Source: a virus
Lineage: Duplodnaviria > Caudoviricetes
DNA length: 56,304 nt
Reading direction: 5' to 3' (one strand)
IMG/VR virus record: IMGVR_UViG_3300044815_000143
Location: 1 to 56,304 of that record
In this document: in pieces, positions 14,318 to 51,545 of the stretch
Layout: the number at the start of each line of letters is the position of its first letter
Numbering within the stretch: position 1 is the first letter of the stretch
The notes under the pieces: generated by a model
Seen by the model: only the letters and a program-made list of their open reading frames with translations
Database searches by the model: none
Told to the model about the DNA's origin: nothing
Translations under genes and position numbers: made by a program

Positions 14318-14470
14318 ATGAACGTCACCGAACAAGAGTTCAGAGAAGCCGTGGATGAAGCCTACGGTCTCGTTGAACCATATATCGTCGGGGCCAAGAA
14401 AGTTCCGATCCGTGTCGTCACCCTCCGGCGAATTGTCGAGGGCCTGAAACTTGGCTACAAGCTCCCATAG
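14318..14470 (+). CDS. Small hypothetical protein (50 aa) between the tRNAs
   Basis: AGGA RBS; MNVTEQEFREAVDEAYGLVEPY...GYKLP; stop codon lies inside the 5' end of tRNA-Arg(CCU). Confidence 0.55.
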   Translation: MNVTEQEFREAVDEAYGLVEPYIVGAKKVPIRVVTLRRIVEGLKLGYKLP

Positions 14471-14537
14471 CTCAGACGGATAGAGCGTTCGTTTCCTAAA
14501 CGAGAGGTCGCAGGTTCGAGTCCTGCTGGGGGCGCCA
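14461..14537 (+). tRNA. tRNA-Arg(CCU)
   Basis: Canonical cloverleaf GCTCCCA...TGGGGGC-G-CCA; anticodon loop TT-CCT-AA; GGTTCGAGTCC T-arm. Confidence 0.95.
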
Positions 14538-18209: not shown

Positions 18210-18563
18210 CCGAAGAACCCAAATGGCGCAAAGGCCTCACGCCTGAGCAGGCGTTGGCCAAGGCCACCGAAATCCTCTCGATGATGCCGACCGATCAGGT
18301 TGACCGCATCATCTTCCTGCTCGACCAGAACCGTGATGAGCCTCGCTTTAATGGCCACCCCGGCTACGAAGGAGACCCCGGCCTTGAAGGATAACAGCGA
18401 AGCTCGCACGGTCATCCGGGACGATGTCCCGGTGCGGACCTTCATGCGGGAAGAAACCTTTCACGCCGCCAATGCCGCATGGCTGGCGGTCAACATGAAG
18501 GATGACGAGAGCGCGACCCACTGGTATGCTCGGGCGTGCAGGAGTGGGATCACGTTCGCCTAG
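18206..18563 (+). CDS. Hypothetical protein (apparent +1 frameshift at C4 near 18376-18379)
   Basis: ORFs 18206-18394 and 18300-18563 fuse on removal of one C. Confidence 0.55.
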
Positions 18564-18622
18564 TTGCAAAACGAGGCGAATCATCCCATACCAAAAGTAG
18601 TTCTTCTGTTCGGGGTCAAGAC

Positions 18623-19519
18623 ATGCTTCTGGAAATGGCTATCGGTGACGCTTTCGGCGCCGCATTTGAATTCGTCACGCCTCAGGCCCAAAAAGAGGCG
18701 GGTCTGATAAACGATGGGCGGACGTTCCAGAACAATCCGCAAATCCCCATCGGTGGCGGGCGCTACACCGATGACACTCAGATGGCTCTGGCGATGGCCG
18801 AACAAATGGTCCATGGCGTTCCGCTGACGCGGGAGCTTTTCTTCGAGAAAGTTTTCAACACCTTCCACCGCGACCCCCGTGAGGGTTATGGGACGAAAAC
18901 GGGCAACATCCTGCGGATCAGCAAAGACCCGGATGACTTCCAGTTCCGGATGTCGGGTGAAGAGGTTTCGAGTCGGTCTGGAGCCGCCATGCGGTCTGGT
19001 CCGTTCGGACTTTATTCGAGCACCACCGAAGTCATCGAACTGTCCACCCGCCAAGCCTCGTTCACGCACGACACCGAGGAAGGCCGTGAGGGCGCCAAGG
19101 CTGTCGCGCTGATGACGCACTACTTCGCCTACGACCTCGGCCCCAAGGCCCGTCTGGGAGCGTTCCTAGAGGACTTGACCGATGTCTATGCGTGGAACTC
19201 GCCGTGGGAATCGTGGGTGTCGTACTACGCTCACCCGGTGGTTTCGGCGGCGATCACGGCGGTGACCAACTCGCGGAGCATGACGGAGGTGTTCAAGAAC
19301 AGCGTGGCCTTCGGCGGTGACGTGGACACTGTTGCGGCCATTGCCAGTTTCGCGGCCAGCCTGTCACCAGAGATCGAGAACGACATCGACCTCAATCTTT
19401 ACGACATGCTGGAAGATGGACCGTTCGGATCGAGATATCTGACTACTATCGACGAACAACTCGCCGAGTTCGCGCGGACGCAGGGCGCCAAGGTCTTCAC
19501 TCGGATTCGGGCTTCCTAA
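18623..19519 (+). CDS. ADP-ribosylglycohydrolase (DraG/ARH family)
   Basis: AIGDAFGAAFE, YTDDTQM, GAAMR, TH, GGDVDT motifs. Confidence 0.9.
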   Translation: MLLEMAIGDAFGAAFEFVTPQAQKEAGLINDGRTFQNNPQIPIGGGRYTDDTQMALAMAEQMVHGVPLTRELFFEKVFNTFHRDPREGYGTKTGNILRISKDPDDFQFRMSGEEVSSRSGAAMRSGPFGLYSSTTEVIELSTRQASFTHDTEEGREGAKAVALMTHYFAYDLGPKARLGAFLEDLTDVYAWNSPWESWVSYYAHPVVSAAITAVTNSRSMTEVFKNSVAFGGDVDTVAAIASFAASLSPEIENDIDLNLYDMLEDGPFGSRYLTTIDEQLAEFARTQGAKVFTRIRAS

Positions 19520-20687: not shown

Positions 20688-21218
20688 TTACGCTAGCGCC
20701 GCATCCAGATCAGCTTGCGTCTGGACGTAGACCACCGGCTTGAAAGCTGTGGCGTGCGTCTCGATGATCGAGGCGATGATCGGCCAGCGGCCTTGGGCCA
20801 GTCCGGCGCCGATCAGGGGGAGCGACACGCGCGGCTTGCCGATGGGGCGTTGCATCCCCGCAAGAATTCCAGCGTAGGAGAAGATTTGGTAATTGATATC
20901 GGCCATGGCCACGGCCATGCCGTCGTAGGTCACGTAGCGAGTGTCCGGCGCGCGGCCGTAGAATTCCTGCGTGATCGCGTTGAACAGGATCAGTTCCTGT
21001 TCTGGGGCCGCCGGGTGTGGAGTAATGACCGTCACCACTTGACCGGTCAACAGACCTTCGGTCTCGTACACCTTGCGGTAGCTTTTGAAGATGTTCTCGT
21101 CGTGGTCGCGCCAGAGCTTGGCAACGCCTGAGCCCATGGCCCCTTGGGCGTTGCAGCCTTGGATGGAGAACTCTTCCGGCGCCTTCATCAGGTCGCCGAT
21201 GATATACTCAATGTTCAC
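20688..21218 (-). CDS. Macrodomain protein (TARG1/DarG-like class)
   Basis: GDL...QGCNAQGAMGSGVAK; PLIGAGLAQGRW. Confidence 0.85.
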   Translation of the reverse strand: MNIEYIIGDLMKAPEEFSIQGCNAQGAMGSGVAKLWRDHDENIFKSYRKVYETEGLLTGQVVTVITPHPAAPEQELILFNAITQEFYGRAPDTRYVTYDGMAVAMADINYQIFSYAGILAGMQRPIGKPRVSLPLIGAGLAQGRWPIIASIIETHATAFKPVVYVQTQADLDAALA

Positions 21219-21220
21219 GC

Positions 21221-23446
21221 TTATTTCTCCAGCAACTTCAGGACGGAGTCCAGCGGGGTGCTGGCGCGCGAGAAATCGACGGTCGGACCATCGGGGTTGT
21301 AATTGGCTTTCGCGAACAGGGTGATCACGTCATGCGCGGTCACCTTACGGTCGGGCAGGCGGACCATGGCCTTGGTCAGGGTCATGAATTTGTTCGTCTG
21401 ATCGGCGACCGCGCCATAGCGGCTGTTGGCTCCGGCGATGTCGATGTAGATCATCTCGCAGGTTTCCAGATCGAACAGCAGCGGGATGTTCGAGGTCGTC
21501 GGCGTGGTCACGGTCATCTTTACCGCGACGGATTCCGGTTCGAACAGTTCGCCAGATCGCAGCGCGTCGCGTTCCATATAACCCGCGAAGCACTTGAAAT
21601 TGTTGAACGGGATACCCGTGTACGAGATCACCGACATGGCGACGTAGCGGATGCCACGCTTCTTGAACCGAGCGATGTCGAAATCGATGTACTCGGACGC
21701 ACCATCGGGGGCGCTTTGGATGTCGCCCGAGTGGACGGCGCCGGTGGCGGCCAGATTGTGGTACGAGATTTGTTCAATCTGGTTGAAATTCTCGTCATAG
21801 GCGAGCAGAGACAGGTCCACGTCGGAAGAGTTCTTCCAGTAGATGAACATGCGGATCGTCGAGGCATCGACGACCGGATAGCGCGAACCTCGGGTCAACG
21901 CCACGTTCGTCGAAGAAGCCGAGCGGGCGCCGAACGGAATCATCACACCCTTCAGGTCGTCGTTGACCACTCCGTTGAACAGGGTGGTGGACGAAAACCG
22001 ATTGATGATCTCGCTTTCGAACGCGGTGACGAGTTCGGACGTGACTTCCGGCGCGATTTTCTTGCGCTTGTCCGGGACGATCTGGACCTTGGACACCGAC
22101 CCCTTCGGGAAGAACATGCGATCTTCATGGGTGTTCGCCGACCGGTGAATGAAATACTTGCGCATTTCGAACAGCGTCGTGGTCTTCAGGTTGGGAAGGA
22201 TGACATTGACGGCGTTCAGCACTTCGCGCGTCGTCGGGACAGATTCGTCGGCGAGATCGGCGTTGTGCAGCGCGGCGAAGATCGCGTCTCGCGCCACGGC
22301 CGATTTCTTCTTGGTCGTGGCGGCGATGCGCAGAAGATTGTCCAGACGACGCATGAACTCGCCCGGACGCGTGGACAGCGTGGCCAGCAGCACGGGGTCG
22401 ATGGTCTTGGATCGAATGCCCTTCTCGACGATCTTGCCGAACGTCTGGATCGATTTCGGATCGGCGCGCAGGGTGTCGAACGCAGCCGACATCTTCGGGT
22501 ACTTGCGCTTATTTTCCTGCGACATTGTGGCCAGAAGTTCGGCCACGCGCAGCCAGCGCTCGCGGTGACGCATCAGGTCTTCGAGGAAGTTGTCGTTGGA
22601 GGCCGACGCTTCGAGCAAACGCAGAACCTGCTTCTTCTGCGAGGTGGTCAGCTTGAATTTGACCTTGTCCTTCAGGGACAGGTCGCCATCTTCCTGCGAC
22701 AGGAAGGTCGCGATGCGCAGAACGTCGGTAGCGCCCGACAGCATCGAAGCCGTATAGGACGTGTCGTTGAAGTAGACGTGAACGAAGGGCAGGTTCTCGC
22801 GATACACAGCCTTGGGCCGTTCAACCGGGAGACGCAAGTACTTGAAAGCGTTCAGGAATACTTTCTCGTCGGGTTTCAGCGACGACTGGCGAGCCAGCAT
22901 ACCGCTGATCTGGCCGGTAACGGTCTCGGCCGTCGCCAGATTCAGAATCTTCAGAGGCGTGATGCTGGCGAAATCGTGCAGGGGCGGCGAGGTCACGCCT
23001 TGCAGTTCGGGAACCTGACGCTGGCAGATTGGGCAGGCGCCGAACTCGGTCAGGTCGAACTGGTTGTGGTCGATGACATGGCCGCACGACAGAACGGCAT
23101 AGTTGTTCGGCTTCAGGCCGAACGCATTGTTCATGTGGCCGGTGACGCGGTTCATCAGATAGGTGTGCTGATCCGGCGTGCTGTACGGGAATTTCTTGAA
23201 CAGAACGTTGTTCGTGTTCGCGTCGGCGCCGCTGACATCGGCCAGCGTTTCGCTCAGGCGGGTGGCGATCACCGAGAACGTGGCTTGAGGCGTGATCGCG
23301 AGCGCGCGAATCAGATCGCCGGACAGCGTGTAGCCGAGCGTCGAGATGTAAAGGTTGAGGGCGACGACGCGTGCGTCGTTACGGTCGCCGACATGGTCAG
23401 GAGCGGGAACGTACACTTCCGAGAAGAGTTGGATTTGCTCGCGCAT
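21221..23446 (-). CDS. Prokaryotic RING finger + TROVE-like repeats + C-terminal TerD-domain protein
   Basis: LSCGH...CPIC RING motif; TDVLR, RPGEFMRRLD helical repeats; DVDLS...HSGDIQSAPDGASEYIDFD TerD motif. Confidence 0.8.
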   Translation of the reverse strand: MREQIQLFSEVYVPAPDHVGDRNDARVVALNLYISTLGYTLSGDLIRALAITPQATFSVIATRLSETLADVSGADANTNNVLFKKFPYSTPDQHTYLMNRVTGHMNNAFGLKPNNYAVLSCGHVIDHNQFDLTEFGACPICQRQVPELQGVTSPPLHDFASITPLKILNLATAETVTGQISGMLARQSSLKPDEKVFLNAFKYLRLPVERPKAVYRENLPFVHVYFNDTSYTASMLSGATDVLRIATFLSQEDGDLSLKDKVKFKLTTSQKKQVLRLLEASASNDNFLEDLMRHRERWLRVAELLATMSQENKRKYPKMSAAFDTLRADPKSIQTFGKIVEKGIRSKTIDPVLLATLSTRPGEFMRRLDNLLRIAATTKKKSAVARDAIFAALHNADLADESVPTTREVLNAVNVILPNLKTTTLFEMRKYFIHRSANTHEDRMFFPKGSVSKVQIVPDKRKKIAPEVTSELVTAFESEIINRFSSTTLFNGVVNDDLKGVMIPFGARSASSTNVALTRGSRYPVVDASTIRMFIYWKNSSDVDLSLLAYDENFNQIEQISYHNLAATGAVHSGDIQSAPDGASEYIDFDIARFKKRGIRYVAMSVISYTGIPFNNFKCFAGYMERDALRSGELFEPESVAVKMTVTTPTTSNIPLLFDLETCEMIYIDIAGANSRYGAVADQTNKFMTLTKAMVRLPDRKVTAHDVITLFAKANYNPDGPTVDFSRASTPLDSVLKLLEK

Positions 23447-24145: not shown

Positions 24146-24418
24146 TCAATCTTCCTTGTCGCCCAAGCTCTGGAAAACATTGAACAGATTGGTATGCGCT
24201 TGATGTACGAGCCTGAAGGCTTCGGGATCAAGAACAAGCGTGGGGTCATCAAGCAGGGCGCGCTCGACCGTCTCCATGGTCAGATAAGCGACATGTGAGG
24301 TCGTGCCGTACTGACTTGGAGTTTGATGCCGGGCCGGACTGAAATCTGGAGCCTCTGCAAAACGCGCCAAACGTTCGAGACGGTCGGTTTCGATGTCTTC
24401 ATTCGTGTACTCGATCAC
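24146..24418 (-). CDS. Hypothetical protein
   Basis: GTGA overlap with the NADAR stop. Confidence 0.6.
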   Translation of the reverse strand: MIEYTNEDIETDRLERLARFAEAPDFSPARHQTPSQYGTTSHVAYLTMETVERALLDDPTLVLDPEAFRLVHQAHTNLFNVFQSLGDKED

Positions 24419-24897
24419 AGTAGGCCAAGCTCCAGTAATTGCGCGAGGGCGCGTAGACGATACATCTGATGGATATACTCCCACTCCGTCAAGGTCGTAT
24501 CGGTCGGATCATGCTTGCCCATGACATGGGTCAGGACCATAACGCCAGAATCGATGAGTGCGGTTCGGAAGGCTTCATTCTCGGCGAAGCACTGGTCGTA
24601 GGCTCTCTCAAGCAAATGGTGGTACTGTTTGGAGAATCGAGGGTAGGCGACACCACACCACCATAGGGTTTGTGTTTCCTTCCATCCATTTCCTAGTTGT
24701 CCGATCTTGAAGGCTTCGTAGCCATGAAGACCGGCGACCAGTTCCTGTTCTTCGGAACCCTCGTGTTTGATTGATTGAAGGAACCCTTCGATTGACCCAC
24801 ACTGGACGTTGTCGAGCGTGAAAGCGTAGGGCATGAGGTTGGAAAGTGCCTTTCCAAGCCCACCATTGCGAAATCCGAGATCGAGAAATGCTGACAT
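24415..24897 (-). CDS. NADAR family protein (T4 gp30.3-like)
   Basis: ALSNLMPYAFTLD...SIEGFLQSIK...QTLWWCG...FRTALIDS...LTH.MGK...TTLTE. Confidence 0.8.
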   Translation of the reverse strand: MSAFLDLGFRNGGLGKALSNLMPYAFTLDNVQCGSIEGFLQSIKHEGSEEQELVAGLHGYEAFKIGQLGNGWKETQTLWWCGVAYPRFSKQYHHLLERAYDQCFAENEAFRTALIDSGVMVLTHVMGKHDPTDTTLTEWEYIHQMYRLRALAQLLELGLL

Positions 24898-25095
24898 TTT
24901 CTTAGTATGCCACAAAAGCCGAATTACCTGCAATATAAGCGATTTGAGAGGCGTTTGGATGGTTGGAAAGTGGATGTTTCCCTAGGTCGTCATCAGTGTT
25001 TCGAAGATTTTTATTGAATAGTCGTTGACACAAAGAAAAGAGACAGGTATTTCTAGCGGCATCCTGAAGCTGCCACCCCAACGGAGACCCACACC

Positions 25096-25740
25096 ATGCA
25101 GCAAGAACAAGCGAATGTCGGCGCACACAACGAAGCGGTGACCGAAGTCCTCAACATCCTCGTGAAGCACAACCTCGTCACCGGTGGCGCCGTCGCCGCT
25201 GTCGGCCGCATCAGCGACGCTCTGGCCAGCGAATTCGGCCTGACCCCGTCCGTTCCCGCCACGGCCGCCGAAACCGGCCCGTCGCGCGAGCCGGTCATCT
25301 CGCCGCGCAAGTCGATCCATCCCGAGTACCTGATCTGCCTGTTCGACGGCCAGCAACTGAAGATGCTGAAGCGCTACCTGCGCACCCACTACAACATGAC
25401 CCCGGACCAGTACCGCGCGCACTTCAACCTGCCGAAGGACTACCCGATGGTCGCCCCGGCCTACTCGGAACGTCGTTCGCAACTGGCCATCGCCACCGGC
25501 CTCGGCGTGAAGCCCGGCTCGCGCGGCGTTCGCGGCAAGGCCACCGGCGCCCCGGCCATCCAAGCTCCGGCCCCGGCTCCCACGGCCGCCGCCAAGCCGA
25601 AGGTGACCCACGCCCACAAGGCTCCGGCCAAGCCGAAGTCGGCGCCGAAGGCCCCGCCCGTCGCCGCCAAGGACGCGGTGCAGTCGGAAGCGGCCCAAGC
25701 CGCCACCGATCTGGCCAAGTCGCCGGAACCCGTCGCCTAA
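25096..25740 (+). CDS. mucR: MucR/Ros family regulator with Ala/Lys/Pro-rich tail
   Basis: SIHPEYLICLFDGQQLKMLKRYLRTHYNMTPDQYR...LPKDYPMVAPAYSERRSQLA...GLG. Confidence 0.9.
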   Translation: MQQEQANVGAHNEAVTEVLNILVKHNLVTGGAVAAVGRISDALASEFGLTPSVPATAAETGPSREPVISPRKSIHPEYLICLFDGQQLKMLKRYLRTHYNMTPDQYRAHFNLPKDYPMVAPAYSERRSQLAIATGLGVKPGSRGVRGKATGAPAIQAPAPAPTAAAKPKVTHAHKAPAKPKSAPKAPPVAAKDAVQSEAAQAATDLAKSPEPVA

Positions 25741-25772
25741 ACCCAGAGCCCAACAATCTGGGTTTGAACGAG

Positions 25773-25803
25773 AGCCACTGGGGAAACCCAGTGGCTTTTT
25801 TTC
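25773..25803 (+). terminator. Intrinsic terminator
   Basis: AGCCACTGGG-GAAA-CCCAGTGGCT followed by a T-run. Confidence 0.85.
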
Positions 25804-25970
25804 GTGTACGAAATTGGTATTTCTTGACTTCGGGCTCGACTTAAGGCTAAATAGAATTATACGCAGAGGGCTGATCCTCTCGTAACATTACATGGCGGAA
25901 ACTCACCATGGTCGAACGACCCCCGAAGGGGCGGCTCACTGCGCCGCTCATCAATCCCGAACCGGAGGTC

Positions 25971-27125
25971 ATGTTTGACCTAGCCGTATTCATCGGCCGC
26001 TTCCAGCCCTTCCACTTCGGACACCTCCACGTCATCCTGATCGCCCTGTTGCGCGCGAAATTCGTGCTGATCAACGTCGGCTCTCTCGATCTGGCCCGTC
26101 GCCCGGACCACAATCCCCTAACCGCCAGCGAACGCGAATCCATGATCCGGGCCTGTCTGACCCCGGAACAGAACGCCCGCGTCGTCTTCCGTTACTGCCG
26201 CGACTACGGCAACATGCCGTTGTGGACGGCCGCTATCCGCCGCAACGTCAAGGAAGTCGTCGAGGCCAAGGGCTTCGATGATCCCAACGTCACCCTGATC
26301 GGTCACTCCAAGGATCGCAGCAGCTTCTACCTTCGGGCGTTCCCCGAGTGGGACAGCATCGACGTTGAGCCGATGCCCATCGACGGCTGCGGCAACCACA
26401 CCCTGTCGGCCACGCCGATGCGCCGGGCCTATTTCGCCGAAGATGGCGTTTTGGTCGATCACTGGCTGAACCACGAATTCCCGAAATTCATGCCGCAAGG
26501 CGCCATCGACTGGCTGAAGGAATTCAAGACCACCGACGACTATAAGGACATGGTCGAAGAATGGGCCTTCCATCGCAAGTACGACACGCTGTACGACAGC
26601 GAAGCGCGGCGGCGTGGATGGTGGCAGTTCTTCGTGACCGTGGACAACATCGTCGTCTGTAACGGTCACGTCCTGCTGATTCAGCGCAAGAACCGGCCCG
26701 GCCGTAATCTCTGGGCGTTCCCCGGCGGTTTCCTCGAACTCGACGAGTATATCGAACAAGGGAGCCTGCGGGAGCTTCACGAGGAAACCCGCATCCGCGT
26801 TCCGGAAAGCGTTCTCAAGGGCTCCATCGTCACCACCAAGGTGTTCGACAACCCGCACCGTTCGATGCGCGGCCGGACGATCACCCACGCAACTCTGTAC
26901 CACATCGTCCCGAAGGCTCCGAAGCGCCATCCCAAGGAAAGCGCGGCCGACTACAAAGTGCGCCTGAACGAGGCCCTGAAGCGCCCGGAAGTCCGGGCCG
27001 CCGACGATGCCAAGCAAGCCATCTGGATTCCCATCGACGAATTCCTGCAAATGCAGGCCGTCATGTTCGAAGACCATTTCTCCATGGGCGAAGCAATGCT
27101 GGCCCTCCTACCGAAGGAAGACTGA
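25971..27125 (+). CDS. nadM: Bifunctional NMN/NaMN adenylyltransferase - ADP-ribose pyrophosphatase (NadM-Nudix)
   Basis: FIGRFQPFHFGH, LSATPMR, Nudix box PGGF...RELHEET, ADDA; GGAGG RBS. Confidence 0.9.
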   Translation: MFDLAVFIGRFQPFHFGHLHVILIALLRAKFVLINVGSLDLARRPDHNPLTASERESMIRACLTPEQNARVVFRYCRDYGNMPLWTAAIRRNVKEVVEAKGFDDPNVTLIGHSKDRSSFYLRAFPEWDSIDVEPMPIDGCGNHTLSATPMRRAYFAEDGVLVDHWLNHEFPKFMPQGAIDWLKEFKTTDDYKDMVEEWAFHRKYDTLYDSEARRRGWWQFFVTVDNIVVCNGHVLLIQRKNRPGRNLWAFPGGFLELDEYIEQGSLRELHEETRIRVPESVLKGSIVTTKVFDNPHRSMRGRTITHATLYHIVPKAPKRHPKESAADYKVRLNEALKRPEVRAADDAKQAIWIPIDEFLQMQAVMFEDHFSMGEAMLALLPKED

Positions 27126-27128
27126 TCC

Positions 27129-28487
27129 ATGGATTTCGCCAAGCGCGCTCATGACCACAACTTCCGCATGGACCCCATCGTGCGGAACCTGACCGACACC
27201 GACTTCTATAAGCCTCTGATGCAGCAGTTCCTGTGGCGGCGGTTTCCGGGCGTGAACTCCGTCTGGAAACAGAAGAACCGCACCACCGACGTTCCGCTGG
27301 CCGAGCAGGTCACCATCGAAGAACTGCGCGAGCAATTCGACCATGCCCGGACGCTCAAGCACACCAAGTCGGAACTGATCAACTACGCCGGTCAGACGTT
27401 CTCCGGCGTGACGGGCATCTTTCGGTCGGGTTACATCGACTTCCTTCGCACCTATCAACTACCAGAGTACAGCATCGAGCACGAACGGGCCTACAACGGC
27501 TCGGTCGGCTACAACACCGGGCAGTACGACATCCAGTATGCGGGCAAGCTGTGTGAAAGCACGGGCTGGGAAATTCCGAGCCTGACAATCACCAATGAAT
27601 TGCGCAACCGCCATCTCCTGCGCCAGCACACCAAGTCCGAACTCGACATCATGTACGCTCGGGCCAAGGTGAAGCTGTACGACAAGCTTCTGGCCCTGAC
27701 GGCGCCGGAACTCGAAGGCATCAGCGTCACCGAGTTCGGCACGCGTCGGCGGCACTCGTTCCTCTGGCAGGAATGGGTCGTCCAGACCATGGCCGAAGTG
27801 CTCGGAGTACGGTTCGGCGGCACGTCCAACGTCTATCTCGCCATGCAACATGGTCTGGAAGCGCGGGGCACGAACGCCCACGAACTGCCGATGGCCTACG
27901 CCGCGATGGCCGATGGTGACGAGGCCCTGAAGAACTCGCCGTACATGCTCGCCCGAGACTGGCAGGCCGATCATCCGGAAGCCCTGCGCATCATGCTGCC
28001 GGACACCTACGGGTCCACGAGCTACTTCGAAAACTCGCCTAGCTGGCTGTCGGACTGGGCGGGTTTCCGTCCTGACTCCAAGAAACCGATTCCGGCTATC
28101 GAGGAAGGCATTGCCTACTGGAAGCTTCACTCGCAGCCCGTGGCGGAAAAGCTGGTCATTCCCAATGACGGCCTCGACGTTCACTTGCCGCACCAAAAGG
28201 CGCACGGCGAGGACATCCCCACGATCTACCTGAAATTCAAGGGGCAAGTCCGACAATCGTTCGGCTGGGGAACGCTGGCCACCAACGACTTCCACGGCTG
28301 CTCGCCGAAGGGATACGACTTCATGAAGCCGATCAGCATCGTCTGCAAGCTGCAATCGGTCGATGGCAAGCCGTGCGTCAAGCTGTCGGACAACTACGAC
28401 AAGGCCATCGGCCCGCCGGAAGAGATCGCGCGCTACCACCGCGTGTTCGGAACCAAGGGCATGGTCGGCGCACCGGTGTTCGTCTGA
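27129..28487 (+). CDS. pncB: Nicotinate phosphoribosyltransferase
   Basis: DTDFYK, EFGTRRRHS, GTNAHE, PDTYG, RPDS, DGLDV, GWGT, VKLSDN. Confidence 0.92.
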   Translation: MDFAKRAHDHNFRMDPIVRNLTDTDFYKPLMQQFLWRRFPGVNSVWKQKNRTTDVPLAEQVTIEELREQFDHARTLKHTKSELINYAGQTFSGVTGIFRSGYIDFLRTYQLPEYSIEHERAYNGSVGYNTGQYDIQYAGKLCESTGWEIPSLTITNELRNRHLLRQHTKSELDIMYARAKVKLYDKLLALTAPELEGISVTEFGTRRRHSFLWQEWVVQTMAEVLGVRFGGTSNVYLAMQHGLEARGTNAHELPMAYAAMADGDEALKNSPYMLARDWQADHPEALRIMLPDTYGSTSYFENSPSWLSDWAGFRPDSKKPIPAIEEGIAYWKLHSQPVAEKLVIPNDGLDVHLPHQKAHGEDIPTIYLKFKGQVRQSFGWGTLATNDFHGCSPKGYDFMKPISIVCKLQSVDGKPCVKLSDNYDKAIGPPEEIARYHRVFGTKGMVGAPVFV

Positions 28488-28690
28488 TGCCCGCCAAACC
28501 CTCCATGCGGTTCGATTATGACCAGTCCGCATTGGTCGAACTGGTGATCGCCGATCTGAGGGCCAAGGGTTACGACCCCGAGCCCAATGAAATCAAGGTC
28601 AAGATTACCGACAGCAAGCAATACTACAGCCCGCTCGACGCGGGTGAGTCCGCTCGGATCGAGATCAGTTTCTCGACTCGTACCAGCTAA
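28487..28690 (+). CDS. Small hypothetical protein
   Basis: TGATG coupling to pncB. Confidence 0.6.
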   Translation: MPAKPSMRFDYDQSALVELVIADLRAKGYDPEPNEIKVKITDSKQYYSPLDAGESARIEISFSTRTS

Positions 28691-28740
28691 TTTCGTTGAC
28701 CAGAATTTAAACACAACTATCCTGCGAATAGGAGCCGACT

Positions 28741-29388
28741 ATGATCCAAATCCATAAAAAATCCGCGTTGATCGTTGTTGATCCGCAAATCGATTTCTGC
28801 CCCGATGGCGCGCTCGCCGTCGCCGGTGGTGACGAAATCATGCAGACCGTGAACGAACTGTCGTTTCATTTTCGCGGTGAGGGTGGCGTGATCGTCACCA
28901 CGCAGGACTGGCACCCGGCCGGACACAAATCGTTCGCCAGCGCACACGGCGTGGCGCCGTTCAGCATCGTTCAACTGTCATACGGTGATCAGGTTGCATG
29001 GCCGGACCACTGCCTGCAAGGCACGGAAGGCGCAGAATTCCACCCGGACGTGGAAGTCACCGTCCTGCGATCCCACGCGATTATCCGCAAGGGCATGAAC
29101 CGCGAACTCGACAGTTACTCGGCCCACTACGAGAACGATCAGATCACCCCGACCGGCCTGACCGGATACCTGCGCTCGCGTGGGGTCGAGGACGTGTACT
29201 ATTGTGGTCTGGCCCGCGATTTCTGCGTCGGGTTCTCGGCCCTCGACGGCGTGAAGGATGGCTTCAACACCCTTCTGATCGACGACGCGACGCGCTTCAT
29301 CGCTGACAAGTCCAATAACGATATGACCGAGAAACTGATCGCCGCTGGCGTGAAGTTCGTCGCCGCCACCGACATCACCAGCCTCTAA
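28741..29388 (+). CDS. pncA: Nicotinamidase
   Basis: VVDPQIDFCPDGALAV, QDWHP, WPDHC, RKG, DSYSA, GLARDFCV. Confidence 0.93.
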   Translation: MIQIHKKSALIVVDPQIDFCPDGALAVAGGDEIMQTVNELSFHFRGEGGVIVTTQDWHPAGHKSFASAHGVAPFSIVQLSYGDQVAWPDHCLQGTEGAEFHPDVEVTVLRSHAIIRKGMNRELDSYSAHYENDQITPTGLTGYLRSRGVEDVYYCGLARDFCVGFSALDGVKDGFNTLLIDDATRFIADKSNNDMTEKLIAAGVKFVAATDITSL

Positions 29389-29403
29389 ACCGGAACGCGC
29401 TCA

Positions 29404-30498
29404 GTGTTTTATCCCAACGCTCTCTTCATCGACGGCAAGGTCGCCCCCATCGAAAAGGCCTTTGGCCGAACTGATGAGCAACCGAACGTGGTTTTTCTCA
29501 AGACCAACACCGTCGATGAAGAACGCCGTAACAGCATCGCCGCGTGGTTGACCAACAACCAAGACAGTGGGGATTGCGTCTGGATCGCCGGATCGCGTTG
29601 GGGAGAGAGGGGAACCCCGCCATTCCTCGTCATGAACGACGGCGCGGCCTGCTGGAGCCAATATGCCTTCGATAATGTCGAACTGGCGGAAGCGTTCTCA
29701 GTGGACTTCAGCGACATTCTCGTCACGACGCGTGACTATGACTACACGCGTTTCGATGAACCGAGCACCGACGTTTTTCTGGGAGGCTCGCTCTGGGAAC
29801 GCACGGACAAGAAAGGCGTAAAATCCCAGTACTATCGTGCTGAAGGCGATATGTGGTTCTCGGACAGCCCCTATTCGATCATCAAGGACCGCCTCGGTCT
29901 TGACATCGAGCCGGGTAAAGTTCGGAACCTGCTGTCGTGGGCGGGCGGACGGTCGCTTGGTATCTTTTACTACCTGAGCACGGTCGCGGATGGTCAAGGG
30001 GCGGAAATCACTAACGAGATCGCCAACTTCATCCTCGGCCCGCTGGCAGGAAGCATGAAAGAACGCGATATCGGATACGTCAAGCGCAGCACAGTGCTCC
30101 ATGAAACGGCTCTGATCGAATTGGGGCGGGCCATGGCTCTGAACCTCGTCCCGTCCTCGGCGCGCAAGGAACTCTATCCGCTCCTGATCAAGCGTTACAA
30201 CACCGAGTTCTTCGAGCTTTTGGCCGTGACCATGGGCACGGTCGAAGAGGCGGCGCGCCTCGCGTTCTACAACATCCTCGCCGAAGTTCTGGAGCCTATT
30301 TTCTCACAGGCCGGGGGAGACGAGATCAACGCCATGATCAAGGCGGTTCTCGACGCGAATCCGACACAGGCCGCGCTCGTCGCTGCCAAGGACCAGAAGG
30401 TCATCGGTTGGGCCATGGGCCAAGTCATGAACGCGGCCAAGCCCACCAAACTCGATCCTGCGACCGTCCGCGCGGCGATCCTCAAGTACCAAGGTTAA
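29404..30498 (+). CDS. Hypothetical protein with C-terminal GatB/YqeY-like domain
   Basis: C-terminus IKAVLDANP...KVIGWAMGQVMNAAK..LDPATVRAAI. Confidence 0.65.
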   Translation: MFYPNALFIDGKVAPIEKAFGRTDEQPNVVFLKTNTVDEERRNSIAAWLTNNQDSGDCVWIAGSRWGERGTPPFLVMNDGAACWSQYAFDNVELAEAFSVDFSDILVTTRDYDYTRFDEPSTDVFLGGSLWERTDKKGVKSQYYRAEGDMWFSDSPYSIIKDRLGLDIEPGKVRNLLSWAGGRSLGIFYYLSTVADGQGAEITNEIANFILGPLAGSMKERDIGYVKRSTVLHETALIELGRAMALNLVPSSARKELYPLLIKRYNTEFFELLAVTMGTVEEAARLAFYNILAEVLEPIFSQAGGDEINAMIKAVLDANPTQAALVAAKDQKVIGWAMGQVMNAAKPTKLDPATVRAAILKYQG

Positions 30499-30502
30499 GA
30501 GT

Positions 30503-32212
30503 ATGAAGATCAAGATCGCCGTTGTGCAAATGAACCCGGTTGTCGGCGATTTGGCCGGGAACCTCAAAAAGATCATGGCCGAGTACGTCAAGGCGGCGGG
30601 AGCGGGCGCGAACATCGTCATCACGCCTGAAATGTCCCTGACCGGCTACCCGCTGGAAGACTTGGTCTTGCGTCACAGCTTCATGGACGCTGTCAGCCAA
30701 TTCACCAGTGAACTGATCACCCGCGTGATGCAGTCGGGGGAAGAAGCCACTCTGATCTTCGGGGCGCCCGCCAAGAGCCTCGACGGCGTGGGAGTGACCA
30801 ACACCGCCTACCTGTTCGATCCTCTGGATTCCAAGTCCGTGCGCTGGGTCATGAAGACCGAACTGCCCAACTACGGCGTGTTCGATGAGAAACGCATCTT
30901 CAAGCCGTCCGCCTACGAGAACAGCGCCTTCATGTGGCGGGGCTACCGTCTGGGCCTGATGGTCTGCGAGGATGCGTGGTTCCCGAAGGTCACCCAGCAA
31001 CTGGTGGAGACCGGGGCGACCTTTCTGATCGCCATCAACGGCTCGCCGTTCGAGGTCGGCAAGAACGTCGTCCGTCGTCAAATCATCGCCAACCGGATCA
31101 AGGAATCCGGCCTGCCGTTCCTCTACGCCAACCTCGTTGGTGGGCAGGACGAACTGGTGTTCGACGGAGGATCGTTCTTCTACGACGGTAAGACGATGCA
31201 GGAGGCGCCACACTTCGTTGAGGGAACTTTCTTCTTCGATGCCGAACTCGGCCCGAACACCAAGAAAATCACCCTCGACAACTATCCGACCGTTCAGCCG
31301 ACTGGTATCGGAGAAATCTATCAGGCCTGCACGCTGGGCCTGAAGGATTACCTGCGTAAGCAACGGTTCGGGAGCGTGGCGCTGGGCTACAGCGGCGGCG
31401 TGGACTCCGGTATCGTGGCGGCCATGGCCTGTGACGCGCTGGGCGCTGATCTGGTTCACCTCGTGCGCCTTCCGTCCAAGTTCTCGTCGGACGGTTCGCT
31501 GACCGACGCGGCCGAAGGCGCCAAGCGGCTGGGCGCGCCGATGCGGACCATCGCCATCGAGCCCATCGTGGATGCCCTGCGTCTGGCCTACCGTGATGCC
31601 GAATACAGCTATCGGGAAAACGAATGCGAACACCTGACCGGTGTCGCCGACGAAAACATCCAAGCCCGCGCTCGCGGCAACATCCTGATGGCCATCTCGA
31701 ACCAAGAGGGCCACATGATCCTGACCACCGGCAATAAATCGGAAGTCAGTGTCGGCTACAGCACCCTCTATGGCGACATGAGCGGTGGTTTCAACCCGAT
31801 CAAGGACTGCTACAAGACCACGGTCTGGGAACTCTGCCGCTGGCGCAATGGTCTTACACCGGATCAGGTGAAAGACCACGGCTTCCTTGGCCATGGGGGC
31901 TACGACGTGGTCCCGGAAGAGATCATCGTCAAGCCGCCGAGCGCCGAGCTTCGGGCGGATCAGAAAGACAGCGACAGCCTGCCGGAATATCCGGTGCTGG
32001 ACGCGATCCTGAAGGCGATGATCGAAGACGAGATGAGCGTTCATACCATCGTCGAGGAACTGAAACTCCGGTTGGACATCGTGCAGAAAATCCGTCGCTT
32101 GGTGGACAATGCGGAGTATAAGCGTCGGCAAGCGGCGCCGGGCGTGAAGATCACCAGCAAGATTCACGGCAAGGATCGTCGCTACCCCATCGTCAACCAC
32201 TGGAGGGGATGA
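30503..32212 (+). CDS. nadE: Glutamine-dependent NAD+ synthetase
   Basis: Nitrilase domain (PEMSLTGYPLED, LPNYGVFDEKR, CED) + SGGVDS, ENIQAR, GNKSE, YGD, PPSAEL, EYKRRQA. Confidence 0.95.
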   Translation: MKIKIAVVQMNPVVGDLAGNLKKIMAEYVKAAGAGANIVITPEMSLTGYPLEDLVLRHSFMDAVSQFTSELITRVMQSGEEATLIFGAPAKSLDGVGVTNTAYLFDPLDSKSVRWVMKTELPNYGVFDEKRIFKPSAYENSAFMWRGYRLGLMVCEDAWFPKVTQQLVETGATFLIAINGSPFEVGKNVVRRQIIANRIKESGLPFLYANLVGGQDELVFDGGSFFYDGKTMQEAPHFVEGTFFFDAELGPNTKKITLDNYPTVQPTGIGEIYQACTLGLKDYLRKQRFGSVALGYSGGVDSGIVAAMACDALGADLVHLVRLPSKFSSDGSLTDAAEGAKRLGAPMRTIAIEPIVDALRLAYRDAEYSYRENECEHLTGVADENIQARARGNILMAISNQEGHMILTTGNKSEVSVGYSTLYGDMSGGFNPIKDCYKTTVWELCRWRNGLTPDQVKDHGFLGHGGYDVVPEEIIVKPPSAELRADQKDSDSLPEYPVLDAILKAMIEDEMSVHTIVEELKLRLDIVQKIRRLVDNAEYKRRQAAPGVKITSKIHGKDRRYPIVNHWRG

Positions 32213-33544: not shown

Positions 33545-35176
<1,632 letters not shown>

Positions 35177-35181
35177 AAATC

Positions 35182-35211
35182 GAGCCCTCGGTGCAAACCG
35201 GGGGCTCTTTT
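35182..35211 (+). terminator. Intrinsic terminator
   Basis: GAGCCCTCGGT-GCAA-ACCGGGGGCTC-TTTT. Confidence 0.8.
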
Positions 35212-35812: not shown

Positions 35813-36826
35813 TTAGTAGCCGGGCCTTTTTGCGTCCCATTCCCGCTTCACGCGGATGATCTGCTCGCCGATCCACCGAACGTCGAGCACGTTCAGGGAA
35901 TTTCCGATGACCTTGTAGCGCGCGGTGTCGGAAGCCGGACGGCCTTCGAACTCCACCAAAGTGTGATTATCAGTAATTCCCATAAGCCGTTCCGCTTCGA
36001 TAGGGGTCAGGCGACGAATGATCGGGAACACTCCGTCATCGACCAGCGCATGAGGCTTGTCGGAGCCACCAGTGGCCGCCAGAAGGCAGTTGGCTACTTG
36101 GTTGCCGACTTCGACCCTTTCGCCTTTTTCCCGGCCCCTGAACGCGACACTGAACGCGCGTTCTCCAGCGCTTGTTTCAAGAGCGGCTGCAAGGTCGCTC
36201 CTTGTTCCTCCGCTTGCCGGAGGAACTTGGCTGCGCGTGTAGGACTCAAATAGTACGTCTCTAGGGTCTGGTCCGTCTGAAGGACAGGCCACAAGGAAGA
36301 GCCTTTCCCGCTGTTGCGGAACGCCTGAGTATTCGGCGTTGAAGAGTCGCCATGCGATGTTGCGCTTTGGTCCAAGCACATAACCAGCGTGCGTCCACTT
36401 TTTCCCTGAAGGGACAAGCGGCTCATCTTCTCCGGCCAGCGCTGCGAGTAGGTGTCCGAAGGCGTTGTATTTGTCACTGAGGGCTCCCTTGACGTTTTCC
36501 CAGCATACGAATTGAGGATCGATTTCATCGGCGAGATCGACGAACGATAGCATCAGGGCGCCGCGCGGGTCCTTGAGGCCACGGCGCAGACCAGCCAGCG
36601 ATACCGACTGACATGGCGTTGAACCCCACAGGATATCGAGTTCACCTCTCCACGGCCGACCATCGATTTGCGTCAGGTCGCCGAGATTGGGAACATGCGC
36701 CCATCGTGTCGCGAGAATAGTGTTCGCGAACAAATCGACCTCAGAGAAGAACTTTGGAGTCATGCCAATAGGTTCCCACGCGAGTGAGACCGCATCAACA
36801 CCTGAGCAAGTGGTTCCGTATTTCAT
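35813..36826 (-). CDS. DNA (cytosine-5) methyltransferase
   Basis: CSG, GDL, GSTPCQ, ENVKG, QQRERLF, RRLTPIEAERLMG, IGNS. Confidence 0.9.
   Translation of the reverse strand: MKYGTTCSGVDAVSLAWEPIGMTPKFFSEVDLFANTILATRWAHVPNLGDLTQIDGRPWRGELDILWGSTPCQSVSLAGLRRGLKDPRGALMLSFVDLADEIDPQFVCWENVKGALSDKYNAFGHLLAALAGEDEPLVPSGKKWTHAGYVLGPKRNIAWRLFNAEYSGVPQQRERLFLVACPSDGPDPRDVLFESYTRSQVPPASGGTRSDLAAALETSAGERAFSVAFRGREKGERVEVGNQVANCLLAATGGSDKPHALVDDGVFPIIRRLTPIEAERLMGITDNHTLVEFEGRPASDTARYKVIGNSLNVLDVRWIGEQIIRVKREWDAKRPGY
36094..36528 (-). CDS. Nested alternative-frame ORF inside the methyltransferase (M.EcoHK31I beta-peptide-like)
   Basis: 144-codon same-strand open frame; SSLWPVLQT...YYLSP....FLRQAEEQG..L.PLLKQAL. 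Confidence 0.55.
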   Translation of the reverse strand: MKSILNSYAGKTSREPSVTNTTPSDTYSQRWPEKMSRLSLQGKSGRTLVMCLDQSATSHGDSSTPNTQAFRNSGKGSSLWPVLQTDQTLETYYLSPTRAAKFLRQAEEQGATLQPLLKQALENARSVSRSGAGKKAKGSKSATK

Positions 36827-36910
36827 TCCCCATAATACCAAATACGGAAATTCGAACGCAATAAACGCCTACCTTAAAAGCTAAATACAGGGCATTATGG
36901 AGGTTTGTTC

Positions 36911-51324: not shown

Positions 51325-51545
51325 GGTTACTTCTCGTTGAGCTAGAATATCGTACAATCTCAGGCTAAGTTACGCAAGTAATTATGGCGCTTAAATGCCT
51401 ATATTTGCTATATTTAGTACATAGTTCTGATCAAAATCAAGTTGTTTTTCATAGACTTTTCTATTTTTCGGCCGCGCTAAATACGATGCGCGCTGTGGAC
51501 CGGAGAATTCACGGCGATATTTTTCGAGACATTTGGGGATACAAT

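What the first reader, a model, noticed from the sequence alone, without database searches (positions are those of the whole stretch)
25971..32212. Complete four-step deamidating NAD+ reconstitution operon (PncA, PncB, NadM-Nudix, NadE) in a phage
Seen: four co-oriented genes with intact catalytic motifs. Established: nicotinamide -> nicotinate (PncA) -> NaMN (PncB) -> NaAD (NadM) -> NAD+ (NadE) is the deamidating salvage route, and the Nudix domain splits ADP-ribose into AMP and ribose-5-P. The described phage NAD reconstitution pathways, NARP1 (Adps + Namat) and NARP2 (Nampt + Nmnat), are two-step and amidated. Inference: this is a third type that recycles both NADase products after Thoeris/SIR2/TIR-type depletion. 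No PRPP synthetase is in this window.
Basis: partly seen in the sequence, partly recalled or inferred. Interest (0 to 1): 0.85.

Follow-up and report, generated by a model that had tools for sequence, protein, structure and literature searches.

The report
Phage nicotinamide-to-NAD+ salvage gene cluster
A fragment of a giant soil phage carries intact genes for all four enzymes that turn nicotinamide back into NAD+ by way of nicotinic acid; similar gene sets were already reported in giant phages, and their proposed role against NAD-destroying bacterial defences is still untested.

Summary
On the + strand lie NadM-Nudix (25971-27125), PncB (27129-28487), PncA (28741-29388) and glutamine-dependent NadE (30503-32212). 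All are supported by Pfam, NCBIfam and PDB matches, and their motifs are intact.

The DNA is phage, not host. The record is an IMG/VR fragment about 10% complete, with a T4-like baseplate, and it is syntenic with a complete 578-kb phage.

The module recurs. 23 of 42 IMG/VR loci that carry a PncB relative hold all four functions within 8 kb, 6 of them in the window's gene order. None of 80 bacterial PncB loci has NadM or NadE nearby.

The novelty claim is weakened:
- "NARP3" already names PnuC+NadR (PMC13464706).
- Preiss-Handler clusters in "NAD-jumbo phages", with a counter-defence suggestion, were published in 2024 (PMC11662467).
- This scan found the same cluster in other genomes.

New here:
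- The closest complete relative also encodes PRPP synthetase, and has no NadD, Nampt or PnuC.
- NadM-Nudix followed by a PRTase is the NARP2 gene order, with PncB in the Nampt slot.

The anti-defence role is untested.

The parts
25770..25799 (+). Intrinsic-terminator-like hairpin (13 pairs, T-run) ending the upstream Ros/MucR gene. It marks the 5' border of the unit.
25824..25853 (+). Possible promoter: TTGACT, 18 nt, TAAATA. It is read from the sequence only, and the scan tool did not call it because the second hexamer matches only 3 of 6. Weak.
   Evidence: sequence; not reported
25971..27125 (+). NadM-Nudix: NMN/NaMN adenylyltransferase fused to a Nudix (ADP-ribose pyrophosphatase-type) domain, 384 aa
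   Evidence: phrog_395 and phrog_1198
27129..28487 (+). PncB, nicotinate phosphoribosyltransferase, 452 aa. It starts 3 nt after NadM.
28487..28690 (+). 67-aa ORF whose ATG overlaps the PncB stop. It matches no family and is absent at this position in the closest relative, L005.
28741..29388 (+). PncA, nicotinamidase (isochorismatase fold), 215 aa
29404..30498 (+). 364-aa protein. Residues about 150-364 resemble the helical plus YqeY tail of GatB, a tRNA-binding module. The N-terminal 140 aa are unexplained. Probably not an NAD enzyme.
   Evidence: 3h0l_B, 1.9e-19; pLDDT 80; Z 9.8-9.9
30503..32212 (+). NadE, two-domain glutamine-dependent NAD+ synthetase, 569 aa
   Evidence: phrog_36784, 599 bits
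32209..33476 (+). Two co-oriented ORFs of unknown function (176 aa and 223 aa). The second is conserved in L005 and L006.
33545..35176 (+). Methionyl-tRNA synthetase, the last gene before the next strong terminator
35182..35207 (+). Intrinsic-terminator-like hairpin (11 pairs, 8 G-C, T-run), the likely 3' end of the unit

Best explanation
This is a phage-borne deamidating NAD+ salvage and recycling module. It is conserved in a lineage of giant phages of Alphaproteobacteria related to Agrobacterium phage Atu_ph07 and Sinorhizobium phage Phosso.

Proposed steps:
1. PncA deamidates nicotinamide to nicotinate.
2. PncB joins nicotinate to PRPP to give NaMN.
3. The adenylyltransferase half of NadM-Nudix makes NaAD.
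4. The two-domain NadE amidates NaAD to NAD+ using glutamine.
5. The Nudix half splits ADP-ribose into AMP and ribose-5-phosphate. A PRPP synthetase, either the host's or a phage copy as in the closest complete relative, can return the ribose-5-phosphate to PRPP.

Net effect: NAD+ is kept up during infection while it is being cleaved to nicotinamide plus ADP-ribose. The cleavage could come from host NADase defences, from the phage's own ADP-ribosyltransferases, or from both.

Shown here: gene identities, intact motifs, operon-like packing, phage origin, and recurrence of the module.

Inferred: that NadM accepts NaMN, that the Nudix domain acts on ADP-ribose, and the physiological role.
For: Enzyme assignments rest on HMM and PDB matches and intact motifs.

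The genes are tightly packed, with gaps of 3, -1, 50, 15, 4 and -4 nt. The unit is bracketed by strong terminator-like hairpins at 25770-25799 and 35182-35207.

The DNA is phage:
- It is an IMG/VR record, about 10% complete.
- It carries a baseplate wedge (phrog_10646, 1067.8 bits) and tail fibre genes.
- Its order Ros/MucR, gp30.3-like, NAD genes, MetRS is shared with L005, which lies in G001, a 578-kb phage genome with terminal repeats rated 100% complete.

The module recurs. Of 42 IMG/VR loci holding a PncB relative, 23 have an adenylyltransferase, PncB, an isochorismatase-family gene and NadE within 8 kb. Six of these (L005, L006, L007, L013, L027, L029) have the window's order and the fused NadM-Nudix.

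It is not a copied host operon. Of 80 bacterial PncB loci, 0 have NadM or NadE within 6 kb, and 71 have PncB alone. In a quick ML tree the window's PncB sits in a set of 24 phage rows plus 3 MAG contigs (SH-aLRT 93), apart from a 64-row alphaproteobacterial clade.

NadM is the only candidate adenylyltransferase. G001 has two CTP_transf_like genes, NadM-Nudix and one that scores as CoaD, and no NadD. The window has one.

NadE passes the NAD+ synthase equivalog cut-off. It is far closer to conventional two-domain enzymes (4f4h, 1e-124) than to 3fiu (1.1e-10), which I recall to be the Francisella NMN synthetase.

There is a bacterial precedent. A passage of PMC3376133 states that a bifunctional NadM works with a conventional fused NAD synthetase in Acinetobacter.

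PRPP supply: G001 encodes a true ribose-phosphate diphosphokinase (NF002320, 452 bits against a cut-off of 297) about 70 kb from its NAD cluster.

Gene-order link to NARP2: in the 2 of 2 closest cultured-phage NadM-Nudix loci I opened (RcXuper, phiM12), NadM-Nudix is followed by a NAPRTase-family PRTase, one small ORF later in RcXuper, where it is annotated Nampt. Here PncB holds that slot.

The neighbourhood is rich in NAD and ADP-ribose genes: ADP-ribosylglycohydrolase at 18536-19519, a DarG-like protein at 20688-21218, a gp30.3-like gene at 24415-24933, and a borderline ADP-ribosyltransferase at 48968-49624.
Against: - No experiment bears on activity or role.
- NadM-Nudix and PncB score below the curated NCBIfam cut-offs of their best families (314.9 vs 397; 356 vs 379), so they are divergent members.
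- NadM-family enzymes are often NMN-preferring (passage in PMC3376133), so step 3 may be slow or may be done by host NadD.
- The host presumably has its own NadD and NadE, so part of the route is redundant.
- The route costs PRPP, two or more ATP and glutamine, and has four steps. That is slower in principle than the two-step NARP routes.
- Prs was found in only 1 of 5 related complete or near-complete records and not in this window.
- A tRNA-type protein and MetRS share the unit, so co-transcription does not by itself imply a shared function.
- No sigma-70-like promoter was called upstream. The only one in the cluster is a 9-of-12 match at 28696-28723, and 2 sites were found against 3.4 expected.
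- No RNA data were available.
Confidence: 0.65

Rival explanations
1. The enzymes and route are the same, but the purpose is general NAD+ supply for the phage's own NAD-consuming enzymes (ADP-ribosyltransferases, and their erasers that release ADP-ribose), not counter-defence. This does not exclude the main reading.
For: The window encodes an ADP-ribosylglycohydrolase, a gp30.3-like protein, a DarG-like protein and a borderline ADP-ribosyltransferase (23.3 bits against a cut-off of 23.4). PMC11662467 reports at least 15 kinds of NAD-consuming enzymes in NAD-jumbo phages. Atu_ph07 and Phosso carry an NAD-dependent DNA ligase.
Against: The three relatives with the window's architecture (G001-G003) have no NAD-dependent ligase (0 of 3). 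The amidated counterpart, NARP2, was shown to counter NAD-depleting defence (bioRxiv 10.1101/2024.02.11.579819; abstract seen).
Confidence: 0.3
2. Francisella-type order: NadE amidates NaMN to NMN, and NadM then adenylylates NMN to NAD+.
For: NadM-family enzymes use NMN well. In Francisella, replacement of NadD by NadM goes with a NadE that acts as an NMN synthetase (passage in PMC3376133). No NadD is present in the window or in G001.
Against: The window's NadE is a two-domain enzyme that passes the NAD+ synthase equivalog cut-off (629 vs 479). It matches 3fiu only at 1.1e-10; that 3fiu is the Francisella enzyme is recalled. The same paper says a bifunctional NadM works with a conventional fused NAD synthetase in Acinetobacter. 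That the known NMN synthetases are single-domain is recalled.
Confidence: 0.1
3. The segment is host chromosome misassembled into, or recently captured by, a phage contig, and has no phage function.
For: PncB's best solved relative is 1ybe (2.2e-127), which I recall to be from Agrobacterium. Bacterial PncBs reach 45-52% identity.
Against: GC content (0.58-0.61) falls within the window's range of 0.50-0.62, with no break. Phage genes lie on both sides. The order is shared with a complete 578-kb phage. The closest PncBs are phage ones at 64-65%. The phage sequences cluster in the tree. 0 of 80 bacterial loci have the cluster.
Confidence: 0.02

Closest known systems
Preiss-Handler gene clusters of 'NAD-jumbo phages' (Microbiome 2024, PMC11662467; passages read, supplements closed)
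   Same: Giant phages carrying clustered pncB and nadE that give a complete deamidated route to NAD+. Phage pncA genes are mentioned, and a counter-defence role is suggested but untested.
   Different: The cluster named there is pncB-nadD-nadE. Here the adenylyltransferase is NadM fused to Nudix, no NadD is present, and PncA lets the route start from nicotinamide. Those phages came from animal guts. This one is held by one soil metagenome run and belongs to an alphaproteobacterial-phage lineage.
NARP2 (Nampt plus Nmnat; bioRxiv 10.1101/2024.02.11.579819, abstract seen). That its prototype is Vibrio phage KVP40 NadV plus NatV is recalled.
   Same: A bifunctional NadM-Nudix adenylyltransferase immediately followed by a phosphoribosyltransferase. 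The substrate is nicotinamide.
   Different: The PRTase is PncB, not Nampt. PncA and NadE are added, so the route has four steps through deamidated intermediates. It is not tested against any defence.
Acinetobacter-type bacterial NAD network (NadM plus fused NAD synthetase; passage in PMC3376133. The original paper, PMC2998121, is not held.)
   Same: NadM serves in place of NadD and works with a conventional two-domain NadE. PncA's best solved relative is the nicotinamidase 2wt9; that it is from Acinetobacter is recalled. NadE's third-best solved relative is 5kha.
   Different: That is a cellular, dispersed gene set. This is a compact phage cluster.
Agrobacterium phage Atu_ph07 and Sinorhizobium phage Phosso (cultured relatives)
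   Same: PncB at 46-47% identity, NadE, an NMN adenylyltransferase, a Nudix/ADP-ribose pyrophosphatase and an isochorismatase-family hydrolase.
   Different: Their adenylyltransferase and Nudix are separate genes. Phosso's NadE is the ammonia-dependent single-domain form. Atu_ph07's NadE lies about 90 kb away. Both also carry PnuC. The Atu_ph07 paper uses the PncB gene only as a PCR marker and does not reconstruct the route (PMC6102473, passages).
NARP1 (Adps plus Namat) and NARP3 (PnuC plus NadR)
   Same: Phage-encoded rebuilding of NAD+.
   Different: The window has no PRPS-like gene and only one NAPRTase-family gene, PncB. The window itself was not searched for PnuC or NadR; relatives G001-G003 have no PnuC. 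The chemistry differs.

Membership tests
Deamidating (PncA-PncB-adenylyltransferase-NadE) NAD salvage route | Nicotinamidase PncA | tested here: met
   NF008623 scores 181.7, above its cut-off of 174. Best PDB hit 2wt9 at 2e-57, with the Asp, Lys, Cys and metal-site contexts conserved.
Deamidating (PncA-PncB-adenylyltransferase-NadE) NAD salvage route | Nicotinate phosphoribosyltransferase PncB, not Nampt | tested here: met
   All 7 NCBIfam hits and all 6 PDB hits are nicotinate PRTases. The best model is 23 bits under its cut-off. The match to the phage Nampt family phrog_448 is only weak, at 26 bits.
Deamidating (PncA-PncB-adenylyltransferase-NadE) NAD salvage route | An adenylyltransferase that accepts NaMN | not testable with these tools
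   The NadM-type domain is present with its HxGH motif. Substrate preference cannot be read from the sequence. No NadD is present in the window or in G001.
Deamidating (PncA-PncB-adenylyltransferase-NadE) NAD salvage route | NAD+ synthetase NadE | tested here: met
   NF010588 scores 629, above its cut-off of 479. The glutaminase Glu/Lys/Cys contexts and the SGGVDS loop are present.
NARP2 | Nampt (nicotinamide phosphoribosyltransferase) | tested here: not met
   The only NAPRTase-family gene in the window is PncB. There is one such gene in each of 5 related records.
NARP2 | Nmnat (bifunctional NadM-Nudix type) | tested here: met
   472 phage records hold a relative.
NARP2 | Restores NAD+ and phage growth under NADase defence | not testable with these tools
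   Needs an experiment.
NARP1 | PRPS-like Adps plus Namat | tested here: not met
   0 matches to PF13793 in the window, and there is no second NAPRTase-family gene. The window is only about 10% of the genome, so absence from the whole phage is not shown.
NARP3 | PnuC transporter plus NadR-like enzyme | not tested
   The window itself was not searched for PnuC or NadR. 0 of 3 relatives with the same architecture (G001-G003) have PnuC; Atu_ph07 and Phosso do.
'NAD-jumbo phage' Preiss-Handler cluster (PMC11662467) | A phage genome over 200 kb encoding every step of one NAD+ route | tested here: inconclusive
   All four enzyme genes are present. Genome size is only inferred, from CheckV's estimate of 10% completeness for 56 kb and from relatives of 279-578 kb.
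'NAD-jumbo phage' Preiss-Handler cluster (PMC11662467) | NadD as the adenylyltransferase, as in the named example pncB-nadD-nadE | tested here: not met
   NadM-Nudix is used instead.

The most novel reading that the evidence does not exclude
The cluster is a functionally distinct, fourth kind of phage NAD+ reconstitution pathway. Together with a phage or host PRPP synthetase it recycles both NADase products: nicotinamide through PncA and PncB, and ADP-ribose through Nudix and Prs. It stores flux in deamidated intermediates (NaMN, NaAD), which may be poor substrates for TIR and SIR2 NADases, so NAD+ is released only at the last, glutamine-driven step. That would make it effective against NAD-depleting defences, and possibly against defences or host enzymes that defeat the amidated NARP routes.
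Probability: 0.25. Interest if true: 0.6.

Novelty: new variant of a known kind. Interest (0 to 1): 0.3.

Why it matters
NAD+ depletion is a common bacterial anti-phage strategy. Three phage pathways that rebuild NAD+ have been shown experimentally, and all run through amidated intermediates.

A conserved four-enzyme deamidated route in giant soil phages would show that phages have also adopted the long bacterial salvage route. In one complete relative this is joined by the phage's own PRPP synthetase.

The route could be tested directly in the cultured relative Phosso, or by expression in laboratory strains. The value of this window is as one more well-preserved example, with a clear gene-order link to NARP2. 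It is not a first discovery.

Tried and rejected
- Near-identity DNA search of the cluster in the phage collection: no match.
- The search for related loci with the single PncB protein found nothing. An alignment with the Phosso and Atu_ph07 PncBs was needed.
- Rfam over the whole window: only a tRNA at 14461-14534. No riboswitch lies ahead of the operon.
- Sequencing runs: one DNA holder (soil metagenome, possibly the source) and no RNA holder listed.
- First AlphaFold model of the 364-aa ORF, from 6 sequences: pLDDT 51, not used. The second model, from 41 sequences, reached pLDDT 80.
- For the N-terminal 140 residues of that ORF, only weak matches of Z 4-5.6 were seen. I draw no conclusion from them.
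- PADLOC: no meaningful hit for the four enzymes. NadM's Nudix part matched PDC-S07 at 31 bits.
- I considered and rejected host misassembly, and the idea that the GatB-like ORF is part of the NAD route. It is present in only 1 of the 6 relatives with the window's architecture (L005), and its homology is to a tRNA-binding tail.
- I did not build a NadM-Nudix tree. The 120 best homologues are mostly unnamed metagenome proteins, so the 'swap' idea rests on gene order in 2 cultured phages only.
- Literature searches for an experimental test of a phage PncA/PncB/NadE route found none. The library lacks most subscription journals, and supplements were closed. Supplementary Tables S5, S8 and S10 of PMC11662467 may list phages with exactly this gene set.

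Full report
WHAT IS THERE

The window is a whole IMG/VR virus record of 56,304 bases. It is linear, and CheckV estimates it at about 10% complete. That estimate implies a genome of several hundred kilobases.

Between 25971 and 32212 on the + strand lie four NAD genes.
- NadM-Nudix, 25971-27125. Pfam gives CTP_transf_like and NUDIX. The best NCBIfam family is the bifunctional NMN adenylyltransferase/Nudix PRK05379, at 314.9 bits against a cut-off of 397. The best solved relatives are 2qjo and 2qjt.
- PncB, 27129-28487. NAPRTase_N plus NAPRTase. NF003704 scores 356 bits against a cut-off of 379. All six PDB hits are nicotinate PRTases, best 1ybe at 2.2e-127.
- PncA, 28741-29388. NF008623 scores 181.7, above its cut-off of 174. 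Best PDB hit is 2wt9 at 2e-57.
- NadE, 30503-32212, the two-domain glutamine-dependent form. NF010588 scores 629, above its cut-off of 479. Best PDB hit is 4f4h at 4.1e-124.

The motifs I recall as catalytic or substrate-binding are all present. They align with the solved enzymes.

GGAGG lies 5 nt upstream of the ATG at 25971, while the longer frame from 25908 has no such site.

Two more ORFs sit inside the cluster.

The first is a 67-aa ORF at 28487-28690, whose ATG overlaps the PncB stop. It matches no family and is not present at this position in the closest relative.

The second is a 364-aa ORF at 29404-30498.
- Five homologues turned up by word search, and 54 at E<=1e-10 by profile search.
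- Its conserved core, residues about 150-364, matches the C-terminal helical plus YqeY tail of GatB. The sequence profile gives 3h0l_B at 1.9e-19. The fold comparison gives a model of pLDDT 80 and Z 9.8-9.9 to GatB residues about 292-474, with a GlnRS tRNA-binding domain at Z 7.
- I read it as a tRNA-binding protein that belongs with the MetRS downstream, not with NAD chemistry. Only 1 of the 6 relatives with the same NAD architecture has it.

The genes are packed, with gaps of 3, -1, 50, 15, 4 and -4 nt. Strong terminator-like hairpins lie only before NadM (25770-25799) and after MetRS (35182-35207). The unit therefore probably also carries two unknown ORFs and MetRS.

No convincing sigma-70 promoter was called upstream. 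A TTGACT-N18-TAAATA can be read at 25824-25853, but it is weak.

PHAGE, NOT HOST
- The window encodes a T4-type baseplate wedge (phrog_10646, 1067.8 bits), a tail fibre, a gp30.3-like protein and two class I aminoacyl-tRNA synthetases.
- GC content shows no break at the cluster.
- The closest cultured phages by protein are Sinorhizobium phage Phosso (PncB 47%) and Agrobacterium phage Atu_ph07 (PncB 46%, NadE 46%).
- The closest uncultured relative is L005, with PncB 65% and NadE 73%. It lies in G001, a 578-kb genome with terminal repeats rated 100% complete. It shares the order Ros/MucR, gp30.3-like, NadM-Nudix, PncB, PncA, GatB-like ORF, NadE, then MetRS.

HOW COMMON IT IS

A PncB alignment recovered 42 IMG/VR loci. 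I compared them by tblastn with the window's proteins and with those of Phosso and Atu_ph07.

| Group | Loci | Content within 8 kb |
|---|---|---|
| Window's order, fused NadM-Nudix, two-domain NadE | 6 (L005, L006, L007, L013, L027, L029) | NadM-Nudix, PncB, PncA or isochorismatase, NadE |
| Phosso-type | 11 | NadE, PncB, separate Nudix and NMNAT, isochorismatase |
| Near-identical set | 5 | PncB, NadE, NMNAT, isochorismatase |
| Other order | 1 (L039) | All four |

In total, 23 loci hold an adenylyltransferase, PncB, an isochorismatase-family gene and NadE. The other 19 are partial, truncated or more distant.

In GenBank phage records NadM-Nudix is common, at 472 records. PncB (13 records), PncA (12) and full-length NadE (9 records covering at least 80% of the query) are rare.

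Among 80 bacterial loci with the nearest PncBs (45-52% identity; mostly Alphaproteobacteria and Acidobacteriaceae), 71 have PncB alone and 9 add PncA, a hydrolase or both. None has NadM or NadE within 6 kb.

A quick IQ-TREE (LG+G4, 120 rows) gives these placings:
- The window groups with L005 and L006 (support 100).
- That trio lies inside a group of 24 phage rows plus 3 MAG contigs (SH-aLRT 93).
- This group is separate from a 64-row alphaproteobacterial clade (SH-aLRT 94).

The tree is quick and has several long branches, so I take from it only that the gene is an old resident of this phage lineage. The rows left out are listed under Tried and rejected.

MECHANISM

The Nudix domain turns ADP-ribose into AMP and ribose-5-phosphate.

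Two steps are inferred.
- NadM must take NaMN. No NadD is present in the window or in G001; the second cytidylyltransferase-like gene of G001 scores as CoaD. A passage of PMC3376133 says that archaeal NadM is bifunctional and that a bifunctional NadM works with a conventional fused NAD synthetase in Acinetobacter. The primary papers were not held.
- The ADP-ribose specificity of the Nudix domain is recalled from work on the Synechocystis, Francisella and KVP40 enzymes. I could not read that work here.

The alternative Francisella order, NaMN to NMN by NadE and then NMN to NAD+ by NadM, is less likely. This NadE is a conventional two-domain enzyme above the equivalog cut-off.

That is true. G001, however, encodes a genuine one (NF002320, 452 bits against a cut-off of 297) about 70 kb from its NAD cluster, a distance that would fall outside this window. 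It was found in only 1 of 5 related records.

Each of those five records has a single NAPRTase-family gene. The three with the window's architecture lack PnuC and an NAD-dependent ligase. In them the deamidated route is therefore the only NAD-making route encoded.

In the two closest cultured-phage NadM-Nudix loci I opened, RcXuper and phiM12, NadM-Nudix is followed by a NAPRTase-family PRTase; in RcXuper one small ORF separates them. It is annotated Nampt in RcXuper. Here PncB starts 3 nt after NadM. The module therefore looks like a NARP2-type pair in which a nicotinate enzyme holds the Nampt slot, completed by PncA and NadE.

ROLE

Counter-defence is plausible by analogy with NARP2. The neighbourhood also points that way: an ADP-ribosylglycohydrolase, a DarG-like protein and a gp30.3-like gene.

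The same neighbours, plus a borderline ADP-ribosyltransferase, fit equally well with recycling the products of the phage's own ADP-ribosylation. I cannot separate these two roles by computation.

COMPARISON WITH WHAT IS KNOWN
- NARP1 and NARP2 are two-step and amidated (abstract).
- NARP3 is PnuC+NadR (PMC13464706; abstract and section 5). That paper does not mention PncA, PncB or NadE, and neither does the NARP preprint.
- PMC11662467 (passages) reports 174 of 668 gut jumbo phages with complete salvage or Preiss-Handler routes, a pncB-nadD-nadE cluster and phage pncA. [quoted passage not shown]
- Iyer et al. 2021 (PMC7824862, passages) describe only the amidated systems.
- The Atu_ph07 paper uses its PncB gene as a PCR marker.
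- Earlier notes of this scan report the same four-gene set in several other phage genomes, with the same verdict.

VERDICT

The cluster is real, intact, conserved and phage-borne. It is a variant of an already described kind, using NadM-Nudix instead of NadD, including PncA, and keeping the NARP2-like gene order. It is not a new category. Its function against bacterial immunity remains untested.

Noticed in passing
window 29404-30498 (+): A 364-aa ORF between PncA and NadE. Its C-terminal 215 residues are a stand-alone homologue of the GatB helical plus YqeY tail, a tRNA-binding module. A family of about 200-290-aa proteins shares this core. The N-terminal 140 residues are shared with only two other proteins and remain unexplained.
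   Followed up: yes
G001 (the record of L005), C1:322373-323287 (-), fetched as L047:873-1787: The closest complete relative (578 kb) encodes a full ribose-phosphate diphosphokinase (PRPP synthetase; NF002320, 452 bits) about 70 kb from its NAD cluster. Only 1 of 5 related records has one.
   Followed up: partly
window 24415-24933 (-) and 25096-25740 (+): A T4 gp30.3-like protein (PF08010, 1.1e-37) and a Ros/MucR regulator lie just upstream of the NAD genes. The gp30.3-like gene recurs upstream in 4 of 6 relatives with the window's architecture, and Ros/MucR in 5 of 6.
   Followed up: partly
window 18536-19519 (+) and 20688-21218 (-): An ADP-ribosylglycohydrolase (PF03747, 3.4e-33). The second protein has no Pfam hit at E<=0.01, but it matches the DarG model of PADLOC over its first 67 residues (30.7 bits) and phrog_335 'phosphatase' (83.7 bits). 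Another note's 'macrodomain' call for it is therefore only weakly supported here.
   Followed up: partly
window 48968-49624 (+): An ADP-ribosyltransferase-like protein just under the Pfam cut-off (PF03496, 23.3 bits against 23.4).
   Followed up: no
window 33545-35176 (+) and 43458-46508 (-): A methionyl-tRNA synthetase and a 1016-aa class I (Ile/Val/Leu-type) tRNA synthetase. There is also a tRNA gene at 14461-14534.
   Followed up: no
window 28487-28690 (+): A 67-aa ORF whose start overlaps the PncB stop codon. It matches no family and is absent from the same position in L005.
   Followed up: partly
L049, L050, L051 (MAG contigs of 22-31 kb labelled Allosphingosinicella and Phenylobacterium): Their PncBs fall inside the phage PncB group in the tree. 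L049 has the Atu_ph07-like set of ADP-ribose pyrophosphatase, hydrolase and PncB. They may be phage contigs binned into bacterial MAGs.
   Followed up: no
L130 (Sinorhizobium phage phiM12), 2201-2341 and 7554-8027: Near phiM12's NadM-Nudix/PRTase pair the record annotates a small YqeY-like ORF, an aminoacyl-tRNA hydrolase and a macro-domain protein. This echoes the mix of NAD, ADP-ribose and tRNA genes in the window.
   Followed up: no
window 21221-23446 (-), 35813-36841 (-), 50578-51357 (-): A prokaryotic RING-finger protein of 741 aa, a C5 cytosine DNA methyltransferase and an SprT-like protein.
   Followed up: no
phage records LR756501/LR756503 (735 kb), MT835470 and MT839920: tblastn places PncA-, PncB- and NadE-like stretches within a few kilobases of each other in these unannotated gut or metagenomic phage records. 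PncA-PncB-NadE clusters therefore exist in unrelated phage lineages too.
   Followed up: no
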